From assembly GCA_044892525.1 (NCBI GenBank), contig CM097885.1, positions 7,752,001 to 7,816,000 on the forward strand: 64,000 bases of DNA, read 5' to 3'. The notes beneath the pieces are model-generated. The model searched no databases, was not told the origin of the DNA, and saw only the letters and a program-made list of their open reading frames with translations. This DNA comes from Schmidtea polychroa. Lineage: Eukaryota. The position numbers were made by a program, and so were the translations under genes. Below, in pieces: positions 48,240 through 58,728 of this stretch (its first letter is position 1; every line of letters begins with the position of its first letter).

Positions 48240-48626
48240 TTACAACAATACATTTTTTCGCAATTCCACAAGTAATGCATGAATTATTTCTCGTTTCTGT
48301 AGATTTACAAAACATGTACAACTATCATCCCCACAAGTATTCTGCATATTATTTTTACAAAAATCACAATTTTCAACATCATCGGTATAACATGTAATCG
48401 TAGCATGATCCATATGAATTAAATCTATTACATTTATTCCAGTTATTTCATAAATTTTGTAAAACACAACTTCTGGAGCACAATACATTAAGGAATTGTT
48501 CAAATTCGGATAAAAATCTTCAATTTTATCAATCAAAATTTTTAGTATAGTTTCTAAACAAAAATCAGTAAATTTAAAATAAAAACAGTTACCTTCATGT
48601 TCAATCATTGTTGAATAAATATTCAA
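48240..48626 (-). CDS. Cys-rich orphan gene Y
   Basis: FYPNLN..IYEITGINVIDLI..CTC..ELR aligns with YYPELN..VYNQTRIWIFDII..CSC..TLR at 58898-59307. Confidence 0.7.
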   Translation of the reverse strand: MNIYSTMIEHEGNCFYFKFTDFCLETILKILIDKIEDFYPNLNNSLMYCAPEVVFYKIYEITGINVIDLIHMDHATITCYTDDVENCDFCKNNMQNTCGDDSCTCFVNLQKREIIHALLVELRKNVLL

Positions 48627-49113
48627 GCAAATCCTCGTTACTTATATTTGAAGAAATTGTTAAAGATCCAATCAAATCCTTTACATCGTTTATAATTCCT
48701 TCAACAATAGTATGAAAATCTAAATTTTTAATACCTAGTACAACTATTTTACCACTCGAAAATATATTTACACATAGTGGATTATATTTTGTATAACGCA
48801 GAGCGGGAAATAATTCAGGCTCATATATACAATCTCCATCTAATAACTTTGCTAAATTATTCAAATTAATAGATTGTTCAACCTTGGTAGCTATAGTAAG
48901 ACTTTGAACTTGAATATCTTTGATATTATATTGCAAATTCTCGAATTCGATAGGCTTCTTACAACCCATTATACGACATTTACCATTTTTGAAAAATATT
49001 ATAGTATATTTTCCAGTTTTGTCAACATATTGTTGTGGTTTACACTTGGGGAAATTCATCATACCAACAGTTTCCAAAGACACACGACCTCTATAATTAA
49101 TATTTGTCAACAT
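48601..49113 (-). CDS. TATA-binding protein (TBP)-like, arm A
   Basis: Two TBP repeats: IFFKNGKCRIMGCK and INLNNLA..YEPELFPALRY..P..VNIFSSGKIVVLGIK. Confidence 0.9.
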   Translation of the reverse strand: MLTNINYRGRVSLETVGMMNFPKCKPQQYVDKTGKYTIIFFKNGKCRIMGCKKPIEFENLQYNIKDIQVQSLTIATKVEQSINLNNLAKLLDGDCIYEPELFPALRYTKYNPLCVNIFSSGKIVVLGIKNLDFHTIVEGIINDVKDLIGSLTISSNISNEDLLEYLFNND

Positions 49114-49247
49114 TTCTACTGAATATTTAAAAAATCAAGTATATATATATATATATATATATATATATATATGTTATATTATAGAGTAATTAAATCAATT
49201 TATTTTTTACGATATAAACAAAATTAATTTTTAAATAAATATTAAAA

Positions 49248-49874
49248 ATGGAACTAAGAAATGATGCTGTATATCAAATAGTCGGACCAAGTGGTAGCGG
49301 CAAAACTTTGTTTGTTTGCAAATTACTAAAATCACATTTATTTGAATCAAAATTTAACAAAATGTATTGGCATCGAGGTGCTGATCAAGAACACGGATTG
49401 ACTCAATCAAGTTTCTGTAAATTGAAAAATATGAAAATAGTAGAGGGATTTGATAAAAATTGGTCCAGTAGACTAAAGAAGGGGGATGTCATAATTATTG
49501 ATGACTTGTATCAAGAAGCTAATAAAGAAAAGAATTTCAATAATTTATTTACCAAAATCAGTAGACACGTTGGTGTAACTGTTATTTTTATAACTCAAAA
49601 TCTATTTCATCAAGGTGGTGCACATCGAACACGTAATTTAAATGTACAATATTAAGTTATTTTCAAGAATCCTAGAGATGCAACAGTGATTGATTTTCTT
49701 GCACGTCAAGCACATCCTAACAATCGTAATTTTCTTATCAGTGCATTTCAAGATGCTACAAAAATACCTCATGGATATATATTTCTTGATTTCACACAAC
49801 AATGTCCCGATGATTTACGAGTAAAAACAGATATTTTCAACCCAAAAGGTGCCATGGTTTATAAACAAAGTTGA
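49248..49874 (+). pseudogene. A32/FtsK-like packaging ATPase, arm A, in-frame TAA at 49653-49655
   Basis: Walker A GPSGSGKT, Walker B IIIDD, ITQNLF; collinear with the intact copy at 57567-58205. Confidence 0.93.
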
Positions 49875-50028
49875 ATAATAATGTTTCTAATAATGTTTCT
49901 AAAAGCAAGGGTGAAAAATATTAGGAAATTAAGAAAAAGTATTAAAAAGAGTATTAAAGTTCAAAAGGTTCCACCAACAACTAGTTATATACCATCTAAA
50001 AAAACTTGTAACTGAAAATTTCTCTGCA

Positions 50029-50427
50029 ATGAATCTTATTTCGAAAAATCCTAAACCTAAACGTGAAACACGTAAAACCCGTAAAGCCGGTAAAAAAGTA
50101 ATTAAAAATCATCGCAGTTTTCCATTTTTTAATGCATTGTTAAAGGCCCCGAGTATGAAAAGAATGAATATATTGCAATCATTCCCAAATTTTGTTGTCG
50201 ATGATTTACTCAATATTATACTTAAAGTAGTCAAAGGCAAAATTAAAATCAGTAAATCAAAAAAGCATTTTTTGAGCAAACATAGGAAACCTTTGTTATC
50301 ATTAGTAAATAATAAAAATCGTAAGCAAATGAGGAAAATTATATATAAACAACAAGGTGGATTTATTGGTGCATTGATACCTCTGGCATTATCATTATTA
50401 GGTGGAGTTGTAGGAAATCAATCATAA
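50029..50427 (+). CDS. Basic core protein with adenovirus pX-like C-terminus (N-terminus from ~49881 frameshifted)
   Basis: Lys-rich; QQGG|FIGALIPLALSLLGG resembles the adenain cleavage site and hydrophobic tail of pX. Confidence 0.7.
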   Translation: MNLISKNPKPKRETRKTRKAGKKVIKNHRSFPFFNALLKAPSMKRMNILQSFPNFVVDDLLNIILKVVKGKIKISKSKKHFLSKHRKPLLSLVNNKNRKQMRKIIYKQQGGFIGALIPLALSLLGGVVGNQS

Positions 50428-50430
50428 ACA

Positions 50431-50658
50431 ATGGGTGCTAATCCTTCATTACCTAATTTAAATTTAAATTTTAAATCTTCTTGCTGTAATGGAGAAGATT
50501 TGGACGGACCCAGAAGACGAAGCCGGTTTCGGTGGAGTGGCAAAATTAAAGAAAAGAGTTCCGAATTCGAAAAAAGAAACCTAGAAGTGGTTATCAGATC
50601 AGCTTGCGTACAGTTTGAACAAACCAATGCGGAAAAGATTTCCAACAAGAGCCTATAA
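50431..50658 (+). CDS. Small putatively myristoylated/palmitoylated protein overprinted on the integrase start
   Basis: MGANPS (MGxxxS) and SSCC; same length, start and stop in arm B (57055-56828). Confidence 0.55.
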   Translation: MGANPSLPNLNLNFKSSCCNGEDLDGPRRRSRFRWSGKIKEKSSEFEKRNLEVVIRSACVQFEQTNAEKISNKSL

Positions 50659-56997: not shown

Positions 56998-57055
56998 TAC
57001 AACAAGAAGATTTAATATTAAATTTAATGTCTGGTAATGAAGGATTAGCACCCAT
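56828..57055 (-). CDS. Overprinted MGxxxS/CC small protein, arm B
   Basis: MGANPSLPDIKFNIKSSCC; counterpart of 50431-50658. Confidence 0.55.
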   Translation of the reverse strand: MGANPSLPDIKFNIKSSCCNGEDLDEPRRRSRFRWSGKIKQKSSEFEKGNPEVVIRPACVQFEQTNAETIPNKSI

Positions 57056-57058
57056 TGT

Positions 57059-57553
57059 TTATGATCGACTTCCTATTATTCCACCTAATAATGATATTGC
57101 TAAAGGTATCAATGCACCGATAAATCCCCCTTGTTGTTTATATATAATTTTTCTCATTTGTTGACGATTTTTATTATTTACTAATGATAGCAAAGGTTTC
57201 CTATGTTTACTCAATAATTGCTTTTTAGATTTACTGATTTTAATCTTGCCTTTGACTACTTTAAGTATAATATCGAGTAAATCATCGACAACATAATTTG
57301 GAAAAGATTGTAAAATACTGTTTCTTTTCATACTGGGTGCTTTTAACAATGTATTGAAAAACGGGAAACTCCGATGATTTTTAACAACTTTTACTTTCTT
57401 AGTGGTTTTACTTTTAGGTTTAGGTTTAGGATTTTTCGAAATAAGATTCATTGCAGGAAAATTTTCTGTAATAAGTTCTTTAGATGGAGTATAACTAGTT
57501 GTTGGTGGAACTTTTGGTTGTTTTTTACTCGATATCCTTGTTTTTGAAAACAT
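57059..57553 (-). CDS. Basic pX-like core protein, arm B
   Basis: QQGGFIGALIPLAISLLGG tail; intact ORF. Confidence 0.72.
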   Translation of the reverse strand: MFSKTRISSKKQPKVPPTTSYTPSKELITENFPAMNLISKNPKPKPKSKTTKKVKVVKNHRSFPFFNTLLKAPSMKRNSILQSFPNYVVDDLLDIILKVVKGKIKISKSKKQLLSKHRKPLLSLVNNKNRQQMRKIIYKQQGGFIGALIPLAISLLGGIIGSRS

Positions 57554-57566
57554 GATTTATATGTTT

Positions 57567-58205
57567 TCAATTTTGTTTTGAACTTTGTTTATAAACCATG
57601 GCACCTTTTGGGTTGAAAATATCTGTTTTTACCCGTATATCATCAGGACATTGTTGTGTGAAATCGAGAAATATATACCCATGAGGTATTTTCGTAGCAT
57701 CTTGAAATGCATTGATAAGAAAATTACGGTTATTAGGGTATGCTTGTCGTCCAAGAAAATCAATGACAGTTGCATCTCTAGGATTCTTGAAAATAACTAG
57801 ATATTGTACATTTAAATTACGTGTTCGATGTGCCCCACCTTGATGAAATAAATTTTGTGTTATGAAAATAACTGTTACACCAACATGTCTGCTGATTTTT
57901 GTGAATAAATTATTAAAATCCTTTTCTTTATTGGCTTCTTGATACAAATCATCGATAATGATTACATCATCTTTCTTCAAACGACTTGACCAGTTTTTAT
58001 CAAAACCCTTTACTATTTTCATGTTTTTCAATTGACAGAAACTTGATTGTGTCAATCCATGTTCTTCATCGGCGCCCCTATGCCAATAAATATTGTTGAA
58101 TTTTGTTTTGAACAAATTTGATTTTAGTAATTTACAAACAAATAATGTTTTTCCGCTACCACTTGGACCAACGATTTGGTATACTGCATCATTTCGTAAT
58201 TCCAT
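57567..58205 (-). CDS. A32/FtsK-like packaging ATPase, arm B, intact
   Basis: GPSGSGKT, IIIDD, ITQNLF, FKNPRD, PHGYIFLD. Confidence 0.95.
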   Translation of the reverse strand: MELRNDAVYQIVGPSGSGKTLFVCKLLKSNLFKTKFNNIYWHRGADEEHGLTQSSFCQLKNMKIVKGFDKNWSSRLKKDDVIIIDDLYQEANKEKDFNNLFTKISRHVGVTVIFITQNLFHQGGAHRTRNLNVQYLVIFKNPRDATVIDFLGRQAYPNNRNFLINAFQDATKIPHGYIFLDFTQQCPDDIRVKTDIFNPKGAMVYKQSSKQN

Positions 58206-58311
58206 TTTTTAAATTTAAACTATATATAATTATTGTTTATATTGATAATTTAAATGAACTCCTTTTTAAAATAACTATATATAACAGAGTTTTTATAATT
58301 ATTTCATTAAA

Positions 58312-58728
58312 ATGCTTTCAAATATAAATTACAGGGCAAAAGCTGATGTATCAAAAATGGTATTTCCAATGGGGAAACCACAACAACTCATCAATAGAAG
58401 TAAAAAATATCCAATAATATATTTCAAAACTGGTAAATGTAGAATTATGGGGTGTAAGGAAATAATCAAAGCTAGTGAATATAATGTTTATGATTTAGAA
58501 ATACAATCGATAACCATAACTTCCGATATAGGTTTTTCTTGTAATTTAAATAAATTGGCTAAATTAATACCATGCTTTTACGAACCAGAATTATTTCCAG
58601 CTTTGAGATATATAAAATATAACCCTATGTGTGTAAATATATTCGCTAGCGGTAAGATAGTAATTCTTGGAATAAAAAATATTGATTACAAATGTATAGT
58701 TGATAATATCATATCTGAAATTAAATAA
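58312..58728 (+). CDS. TATA-binding protein (TBP)-like, arm B
   Basis: YFKTGKCRIMGCK and NLNKLA..YEPELFPALRY..NIFASGKIVILGIK. Confidence 0.9.
   Translation: MLSNINYRAKADVSKMVFPMGKPQQLINRSKKYPIIYFKTGKCRIMGCKEIIKASEYNVYDLEIQSITITSDIGFSCNLNKLAKLIPCFYEPELFPALRYIKYNPMCVNIFASGKIVILGIKNIDYKCIVDNIISEIK

What the first reader, a model, noticed from the sequence alone, without database searches (positions are those of the whole stretch)
48601..58728. Element-encoded minimal TATA-binding protein, head-to-head with the packaging ATPase in both arms
Both 48601-49113 and 58312-58728 keep TBP signatures (F-x-x-GK-x4-G-x-K twice, YEPELFP), but the first repeat is shortened and there is no N-terminal extension (138-170 aa). 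By eye only about half the residues match between copies, with motifs retained and frames intact, which suggests purifying selection. TBP homologs are known from large DNA viruses; a small element without its own RNA polymerase carrying one suggests recruitment of host Pol II to viral promoters. The 105-135 bp AT/TA-rich spacer to the ATPase is a candidate target (inference).
Basis: partly seen in the sequence, partly recalled or inferred. Interest (0 to 1): 0.85.

Follow-up and report, generated by a model that had tools for sequence, protein, structure and literature searches.

The report
Maverick TBP with private late promoter
A virus-like jumping element carries its own cut-down TATA-binding protein, and its particle-building genes sit behind a matching non-standard TATA box, which points to a built-in switch that turns host RNA polymerase II onto viral late genes.

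Summary
Both ORFs are real TBP-fold genes (Pfam; AlphaFold model, Z 13 to TBP). They are not two arms of one element: a 16-kb Maverick/Polinton (subfamily A) carries an inverted fragment of subfamily B. Each TBP has at least 150 near-identical copies in this genome, evolves under purifying selection and belongs to a Maverick TBP clade distinct from host TBP (AU p=0.0002). Head-to-head layout is local: 25 of 27 metagenomic relatives are tandem. The clade keeps three of four DNA-intercalating phenylalanines and both TFIIB-binding glutamates, loses the N-lobe regulator surface and rewires DNA-facing residues; no viral TFIIB was found. Virion genes of TBP-bearing elements share a non-canonical box, YATAAACR, mostly 33-42 nt before the ATG (ATPase 19 of 20; 86 sense, 0 antisense), kept even at synonymous sites. 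The TBP gene has a canonical TATA, and one TBP-less Maverick family lacks the box. Best reading (0.7): an early viral TBP recruits host TFIIB/Pol II to late promoters, as herpesvirus ORF24 does with TATT. Binding and expression are inferred, not shown. This scan noted the same box before on other DNA of this genome (e1-7879962).

The parts
45370..46926 (.). Left terminal inverted repeat of Maverick element A; 6-bp target-site duplication; the right end lies outside the window (L031:4868, window-equivalent 68868)
46453..46914 (-). RING-finger ORF inside the repeat
   Evidence: Pfam zf-C3HC4_3 E 3.6e-10
47443..47742 (-). Last exon (approximate bounds) of element A's homologue of the SSB-like gene
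   Evidence: equivalent frame in copy L080 aligns with the orf139 family
48240..48608 (-). Cys-rich 122-aa ORF downstream of TBP-A, no family
48601..49113 (-). TBP-A, 170 aa, two-lobed minimal TBP
49114..49247 (.). Divergent spacer A: (TA)n canonical TATA-like tract 34-38 nt before the TBP start; late box on the other strand
49213..49220 (+). YATAAACR box 35 nt before the ATPase A start; present in 28 of 29 A copies in which the ATPase start was found (30 examined)
49248..49874 (+). Packaging ATPase A; this copy has an internal stop at codon 136
49860..49867 (+). YATAAACR box inside the ATPase 3' end, upstream of the next gene
50029..50427 (+). Basic ORF (orf164 family), putative virion core protein (inferred)
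50627..51562 (+). Retroviral-type integrase with chromodomain; (ATT)n tract, probably intronic
   Evidence: Pfam rve and Chromo
51508..52575 (+). Putative minor capsid protein (by position and recall; no Pfam hit)
52568..52936 (+). Basic core-like ORF; its 3' end holds the box at 52891-52898, 42 nt before the major capsid start
52933..54156 (+). Putative major capsid protein (label from position and recall); this copy has an internal stop at codon 181
54221..54556 (+). Adenain-type protease frame
   Evidence: copy L079 hits Peptidase_C5 E 7.2e-7
54763..61989 (.). Inverted, one-ended fragment of subfamily B inserted into element A, with no target-site duplication and 9 bp of A missing
57567..58205 (-). 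Packaging ATPase B, 212 aa
   Evidence: Pfam Pox_A32 E 2e-7
57586..57593 (-). YATAAACR box 40 nt before the orf164 start
58234..58241 (-). YATAAACR box 36 nt before the ATPase B start; present in 30 of 30 B copies
58276..58283 (+). Canonical TATATA box 34-36 nt before the TBP-B start
58312..58728 (+). TBP-B, 138 aa in this copy (154 aa in 29 of 30 other copies)
59563..59982 (+). OB-fold single-stranded-DNA-binding-like protein (T7 gp2.5 / ASFV CP312R type), preceded by CCAAT and canonical TATA
   Evidence: (Z 6.8-7.2)
60689..61009 (-). Bcl-2-like ORF, preceded by CCAAT and canonical TATA
   Evidence: Pfam Bcl-2 E 7e-4, below cut-off
61990..64000 (+). Element A resumes; start of the protein-primed polymerase gene, which continues in L031

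Best explanation
A clade of Maverick/Polinton elements owns a specialised TBP that acts as an early-to-late switch. (1, inferred) Host TBP/TFIID reads the canonical TATA and CCAAT promoters of the early module: TBP, SSB-like gene, Bcl-2-like gene. (2, inferred) The viral TBP binds YATAAACR, a TATA box with C at position 7, in front of the ATPase, capsid, core and other virion genes. Its C-lobe, which reads the 5' half of the box, keeps both phenylalanines; its N-lobe, which reads the 3' half, has lost one phenylalanine and carries fixed polar substitutions. (3, inferred) It recruits host TFIIB through the kept glutamate pair, and so host Pol II. (4, inferred) Loss or charge reversal of N-lobe helix H2 frees it from TAF1, Mot1/BTAF1, TFIIA and Brf1 control. 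Shown here: fold (as a prediction), conservation pattern, selection, single clade, co-inheritance with the ATPase, and the box with its position, strand and codon-level conservation. Not shown: any binding, or any transcript.
For: Fold: pLDDT 95.5; Z 13.0-13.2, rmsd 2.2-2.5 A, 138 residues aligned to archaeal, yeast and human TBP; best non-TBP Z 6.6. In 228 clade rows (with redundancy): F38 222 of 223, F95 227 of 228, F111 225 of 225, E91 219 of 228, E93 225 of 228. PMC7221094 (Results parts 1-3 read) names these glutamates as the TFIIB contacts, about 40% conserved in other viral TBPs, which mostly have their own TFIIB; it places the TAF1/Mot1/TFIIA/Brf contacts on the basic N-lobe H2. No TFIIB or RNA polymerase among 68 neighbour proteins scanned or in element A's frames. 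Box within 90 nt of the start, near-identical regions removed: ATPase 19 of 20 (shuffle mean 0.9, max 5), PLA2-domain gene 8 of 8, major capsid 10 of 11, TBP gene 1 of 43; canonical TATA at 21 of 43 TBP genes (mean 9.4, max 16). 86 sense and 0 antisense boxes in 69.9 kb of 13 late cassettes. Core-gene Ile-Asn coded as the box 13 of 13 against 26 of 310; ATPase end 16 of 17 against 117 of 334. 52 boxes in coding DNA against synonymous-shuffle mean 17.7, max 27. TBP-less family C: 0 of 17 ORFs, 2 sense and 1 antisense in 16.2 kb. Residues at the TBPm3 altered-specificity sites I194, V203, L205 (PMC1636458 passages) are R, C, N in 197 of 228, 191 of 227 and 225 of 226 rows. TBP and ATPase distances correlate (rho 0.81, p 0.0005, 22 loci).
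Against: All functional links are correlative. The TBP-less control is one family from one genome, and it is distantly related (polymerase about 27% identical), so the box could be a clade trait unrelated to TBP. Cellular machinery still gets 27% activity from TATAAACG (PMC10005294 Table 4). The leucine recalled as clashing with a C:G pair at position 7 is still aliphatic in the clade (column 36), so the structural basis for preferring C is not evident. 47 of 86 boxes have no ORF start 25-60 nt downstream. The box precedes only 7 of 15 integrase, 2 of 7 core and 2 of 5 minor-capsid regions. The motif was first seen by eye in the same loci on which it was then tested, and several loci are related.
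Confidence: 0.7

Rival explanations
1. The box is read by host TBP/TFIID as a weak TATA that becomes active after genome replication; the viral TBP only adds TBP supply or has another job.
For: TATAAACG keeps 27% activity in plant cells. Cellular TBP was crystallised on the C(-25) variant (entry title; Hoogsteen pair, PMC4402545 passages).
Against: A host-read box would not be expected to fix C at position 7 against A or T: one-off variants are far rarer in the same cassettes (YATAAAGR 11, YATAAATR 16, YATAAAAR 18 sense, against 86). DNA-facing residues of the viral TBP are fixed in a non-host state. The TBP-less family lacks the box.
Confidence: 0.12
2. Another element-encoded factor, such as the small Cys-rich ORFs beside TBP, recognises the box and the TBP acts only as part of that complex, as in the six-protein herpesvirus system.
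For: Small unannotated ORFs flank TBP in both subfamilies; beta/gammaherpesviruses need several partners (PMC12529657 passages).
Against: Among the window's proteins used as queries, the only recurring non-virion neighbour was the SSB-like gene (20 of 80 loci); the Cys-rich orf122a matched none of the 80. The box has the length, sequence and spacing of a TATA element.
Confidence: 0.1
3. The protein is a decoy or host shut-off factor that titrates TFIIB or blocks host promoters, or it tethers the integrase to promoters; it does not drive late genes.
For: TFIIB-contact glutamates kept and regulator surface lost would also suit a dominant negative. The host has 6 TBP-family loci and tandem TFIIB-like genes, which could reflect conflict.
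Against: Does not explain the box or its absence from the TBP-less family. Three phenylalanines and family-specific DNA-face residues are nearly invariant.
Confidence: 0.06
4. A recent or neutral capture of a host TBP or paralogue with no function for the element.
For: The host has intronless TBP paralogues; this window's B copy ends early.
Against: dN/dS mostly 0.1-0.3. 43 short TBP rows form one side of a branch, 100/100. A clade of the window TBPs with the six host genes is rejected, p-AU 0.0002. Same gene in many independent Mavericks.
Confidence: 0.01

Closest known systems
Cellular TBP (PF00352; eukaryotic TBP/TRF, archaeal TBP)
   Same: Two-lobed saddle, Z 13; YEPELFP stirrup with both TFIIB glutamates; three of four phenylalanines.
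   Different: About 30 residues shorter; N-lobe helices H1 and H2 deleted in this subclade and H2 acidic in the other; first N-lobe phenylalanine absent; fixed polar residues on the DNA face; separate clade.
Beta/gammaherpesvirus vTBP (KSHV ORF24; TATTWAA late promoters; PMC12529657, passages read)
   Same: Viral TBP-like protein in a virus without its own RNA polymerase, with a non-canonical TATA at late genes and a more polar DNA face.
   Different: ORF24 is a 752-aa multidomain protein in a six-member complex, binds Pol II directly, keeps four phenylalanines and lacks the TFIIB glutamates. The Maverick protein is 140-170 aa, keeps the glutamates and has no identified viral partner.
Nucleocytoviricota TBP/TFIIB pairs (PMC7221094 Results; PMC12917281 seen as listing only)
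   Same: Viral TBP-like fold (best BFVD match E 9.6e-8); N-lobe regulator signature lost.
   Different: These mostly encode their own TFIIB, which co-evolves with the stirrup residues; the one such TBP in my tree (L173) falls outside the Maverick clade.
Maverick/Polinton elements and adintoviruses (PMC8502044, section 3.4 and passages read)
   Same: Terminal inverted repeats, 6-bp duplications, polymerase, integrase, ATPase, protease, putative capsid genes, Bcl-2-like cargo.
   Different: In that paper TBP appears once, as an abbreviation in the legend of Figure 5 (MELD viruses with adintovirus-like PolB; figure not visible to me). No family description, function or promoter motif.
Yeast TBPm3 altered-specificity mutant (PMC1636458, passages read)
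   Same: The same three DNA-facing positions differ from wild type.
   Different: TBPm3 relaxes position 2 of the box; the natural Maverick box differs at positions 1 and 7, so the analogy shows plausibility only.

Membership tests
TBP family | Two-lobed saddle fold with a continuous antiparallel sheet | tested here: met
   predicted model, Z 13.0-13.2 over 138 residues
TBP family | Pfam PF00352 above cut-off | tested here: met
   62.5 and 56 bits against cut-off 22.9, second repeat only
TBP family | Four intercalating phenylalanines | tested here: not met
   three nearly invariant; the first N-lobe one has no counterpart in either alignment
TBP family | C-lobe glutamate pair that binds TFIIB/TFB | tested here: met
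   219 and 225 of 228 rows
Eukaryotic TBP | Basic N-lobe helix H2 for TAF1, Mot1, TFIIA and Brf1 | tested here: not met
   segment mostly 18-23 aa against 33; mean charge +1.3 (182 rows) or -2.6 (45 rows) against +3.8 (17 rows)
TBP family | Binds and bends TATA DNA; nucleates a pre-initiation complex | not testable with these tools
   needs biochemistry
Herpesvirus vTBP (ORF24 type) | Large multidomain protein that binds Pol II directly and lacks the TFIIB glutamates | tested here: not met
   138-170 aa, glutamates kept; works like it, is not a member
Nucleocytoviricota TBP-TFIIB system | Own TFIIB and RNA polymerase in the same genome | tested here: not met
   none in element A's frames or in 68 neighbour proteins; many relatives are on short contigs
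Maverick/Polinton | Terminal inverted repeats and 6-bp target-site duplication | tested here: met
   6 of 6 A copies
Maverick/Polinton | Retroviral-type integrase, A32-type ATPase, adenain protease | tested here: met
   (rve hit below its cut-off)
Maverick/Polinton | Protein-primed family B polymerase | tested here: inconclusive
   1314-codon open frame with polymerase motifs recognised from recall; Pfam gave only a weak endonuclease VII hit
Maverick/Polinton | Double jelly-roll major and single jelly-roll minor capsid proteins | not tested
   no Pfam hit; labels rest on size, position, conservation and recall; not folded

The most novel reading that the evidence does not exclude
A large clade of animal-associated Mavericks runs an orthogonal one-protein late-transcription system: a regulator-blind mini-TBP that alone redirects host TFIIB and Pol II to a private YATAAACR promoter. 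That would be the smallest viral TBP switch known and direct evidence that these 'transposons' keep a staged, virus-like productive cycle.
Probability: 0.55. Interest if true: 0.85.

Novelty: new variant of a known kind. Interest (0 to 1): 0.72.

Why it matters
Maverick particles have not been observed (PMC8097293, abstract start in search listing), and how their capsid genes are switched on is open. A dedicated TBP with a matching promoter gives a specific, testable switch and a marker for an early/late programme. It would also be a natural altered-specificity TBP-TATA pair that keeps TFIIB contacts and drops regulator contacts, useful for studying Pol II initiation. In this genome the gene has at least 450 scored copies across three subfamilies, from about 4,000 first-look candidates (the third set overlaps subfamily A in part, so the figure is approximate).

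Tried and rejected
Two arms of one element: rejected. Head-to-head layout as a conserved feature: rejected, 25 of 27 tandem. Expression: no RNA holder listed. Contigs of three runs guessed to be RNA cover the TBP and ATPase region but show no splice joint across the one candidate intron and cannot show strand or level; no evidence either way. Viral contig collection: one distant giant-virus-like TBP with the profile; nothing with the ATPase or capsid queries, so no further TBP-less controls. An adenain family search of the genome returned nothing and its control was also silent: uninformative. Whole-window count of the box is not above chance (29 against mean 24.3); the signal is positional and strand-specific. 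ESM Atlas gave no usable hit for the SSB-like ORF. dS between subfamilies A and B is saturated (2.6-5.9), so that ratio is rough; the unsaturated pairs carry the selection claim; two close pairs gave dN at or above dS (L093/L098 and L109/L112). FastTree reported support 0.0 at the clade node in the large tree, so I rely on IQ-TREE. Literature: nine full-text searches. Term look-ups found no TBP in PMC11161782, 10.64898/2026.06.19.733378, PMC12220804, PMC11131425 and PMC10748475, and none in the one supplement held for PMC8502044. Patikoglou 1999 is not held; its content is known only through PMC4402545 and recall. Figures, Repbase entries, bioRxiv supplements and subscription papers were not visible and may name this gene.
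Full report
What is there. The two ORFs are as described. Both exceed the Pfam TBP cut-off through their second repeat and are 57% identical. A model built on 62 relatives has mean pLDDT 95.5. It aligns over all 138 residues to archaeal, yeast and human TBP at Z 13.0-13.2 and rmsd 2.2-2.5 A; the best non-TBP match is Z 6.6.

Context. The genes are not arms of one element. Element A starts at 45370; its 1.6-kb repeat pairs at 98.5% with DNA past the window end, and both ends carry the same 6-bp duplication. 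Five other A copies are 16.0-16.3 kb with 6-bp duplications. Four of them share the order repeat, small ORFs, TBP, ATPase, basic ORF, integrase, putative minor capsid, core, putative major capsid, polymerase, RING, repeat; the fifth has a deletion. A protease frame follows the capsid gene. In the window, 54763-61989 is an inverted piece of subfamily B dropped into A. Nucleotide identity between the two copies climbs from 68% in TBP through 88.5% in the ATPase to 98% in the minor capsid gene, which suggests exchange of the capsid module between subfamilies. Element A itself lies between the pol and gag-like frames of a retroelement (inference). This copy is damaged: stops at ATPase codon 136 and capsid codon 181, and TBP-B ends early. 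The genome (G000, 781 Mb) gave 150 of 150 scored matches at 97-100% identity for each TBP, from about 4,090 first-look candidates. A third 145-aa subfamily exists.

A clade-wide gene. Searches returned 84 close relatives and further ones among 50%-identity representatives. Of 149 metagenomic matches the best 80 were kept. 36 of the 80 show a Maverick core gene nearby, 13 more show only the SSB-like neighbour, and the rest are mostly short contigs (counted). ATPase and TBP share a strand in 25 of 27 loci. Forty-three short TBP rows form one side of a branch at 100/100, apart from 39 cellular and giant-virus rows. A clade of the two window proteins with the six host TBP-family genes is rejected (p-AU 0.0002). 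TBP and ATPase distances correlate over 22 loci (rho 0.81, p 0.0005). The tree has no root and a long stem, so the donor is unknown. dN/dS is mostly 0.1-0.3 among metagenomic pairs over 62% identity and 0.20-0.27 for five of six unsaturated in-genome pairs of the third subfamily, 0.4-0.5 for the closest.

What the protein kept and lost. Yeast numbers below are recalled unless cited. In 228 clade rows, three intercalating phenylalanines and the two stirrup glutamates are nearly invariant. Ravarani et al. (PMC7221094; abstract, introduction and Results parts 1-3 of 4 read) identify those glutamates as the TFIIB contacts. They report about 40% conservation in viral TBPs, most of which have their own TFIIB, and map TAF1, Mot1, TFIIA and Brf1/2 to a basic patch on N-lobe helix H2. 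Here the H2 segment is deleted (182 rows) or on average acidic (45 rows), and the first N-lobe phenylalanine is absent. No TFIIB or RNA polymerase appeared in element A's frames or in a Pfam scan of 63 of 195 metagenomic neighbour ORFs, chosen mainly as those not already identified, plus 5 genomic ones. DNA-facing columns carry fixed clade-specific residues, including the three TBPm3 positions. The recurring neighbour folds like T7 gp2.5 and ASFV CP312R (Z 6.8-7.2, middling).

The promoter. Upstream regions showed a motif by eye; an unbiased 6-mer ranking put ATAAAC first (20 of 20 ATPase regions, 1.5 expected). YATAAAC precedes 19 of 20 ATPase, 8 of 8 PLA2-domain, 10 of 11 capsid, 8 of 10 of an unannotated conserved ORF family, 6 of 9 basic-ORF and 7 of 15 integrase starts, mostly at 33-42 nt for the ATPase and PLA2 genes. 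It precedes 1 of 43 TBP genes, of which 21 have a canonical TATA. Thirteen late cassettes hold 86 sense and 0 antisense copies; 39 of the 86 have an ORF start 25-60 nt downstream, against a random mean of 4.2, maximum 11. Where the box overlaps the previous gene, synonymous codons are fixed to spell it (13 of 13; 16 of 17; 52 against at most 27 in shuffles). A distant Maverick family in the same genome had no TBP hit in ten 10-kb stretches from five loci and no box before 17 of 17 ORFs examined in two of them. In the window, each spacer has the late box facing the ATPase and a canonical TATA facing TBP. The box differs from TATAWAWR at position 7, in the half read by the N-lobe (PMC1636458) next to the downstream kink (PMC10005294 passages). 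That is the lobe the clade has remodelled. Cellular machinery uses TATAAACG at 27%.

Mechanism and limits. The simplest account is an early viral TBP that, with host TFIIB and Pol II, switches on virion genes (0.7). Rivals are a weak host-read box (0.12), another viral reader (0.10) and a decoy role (0.06). Nothing here shows binding or transcription. The control is a single distant family, the loci are partly related, and 47 of 86 boxes lack a near start codon. Hosts of the metagenomic relatives are unknown.

Relation to what is known. It works like herpesvirus ORF24 with TATTWAA (PMC12529657 passages) but is not of that family: it is small and keeps the TFIIB glutamates. It is a divergent TBP-family member that fails two features of cellular TBP. 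In the searches listed under Tried and rejected, the only link in print between TBP and these elements was an abbreviation in a figure legend of PMC8502044 and its preprint. I had the motif before seeing it, and it is not independent evidence. Verdict: real feature, new variant of a known kind, interest 0.72.

Noticed in passing
G000:C1:23.85-24.19 Mb and C3:38.2-39.1 Mb (L186-L190): At least 13 intronless, about 301-aa divergent TFIIB-like genes in tandem clusters; on C1 the repeat unit also holds a 90-codon fragment of Maverick polymerase.
   Followed up: partly
L174-L179: Host has one canonical TBP and five paralogues; L175 and L179 are single long frames covering both repeats.
   Followed up: partly
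L085-L091: Three other loci are fold-back structures with two TBP modules of one subfamily facing apart and no polymerase in the fetched span, so true two-TBP elements exist elsewhere in the genome.
   Followed up: partly
window 46453-46926: The left repeat here contains the whole RING ORF; in other A copies the TBP-side end holds only its last 20 codons, suggesting copying from the other end.
   Followed up: no
window 50878-50935 and 56504-56608: The integrase gene carries an (ATT)n microsatellite of variable length, bounded by GT...AG in element A, probably an intron.
   Followed up: no
window 50431-50660 and equivalents in L096, L097, L101, L132: Small conserved ORF beginning Met-Gly just before the integrase, a possible myristoylated virion protein (label from recall).
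   Followed up: no
L213-L218: The TBP-less family C has A-rich TAAA-like sequence directly before most start codons, reminiscent of poxvirus late promoters (recalled); a different late motif may exist.
   Followed up: no
L136, L146, L149, L150, L160: A second TBP-bearing subclade carries PLA2-domain genes, some also KilA-N genes, and keeps a longer N-lobe, a likely intermediate state of the TBP.
   Followed up: partly
window 45613-45973 and 61605-61805: Short tandem arrays inside both terminal repeats (118-122 nt and 26-39 nt units).
   Followed up: no
window 373-1364, 38953-41444, 42184-45291: Ty3/Gypsy-type retroelement frames flank the Maverick.
   Followed up: no
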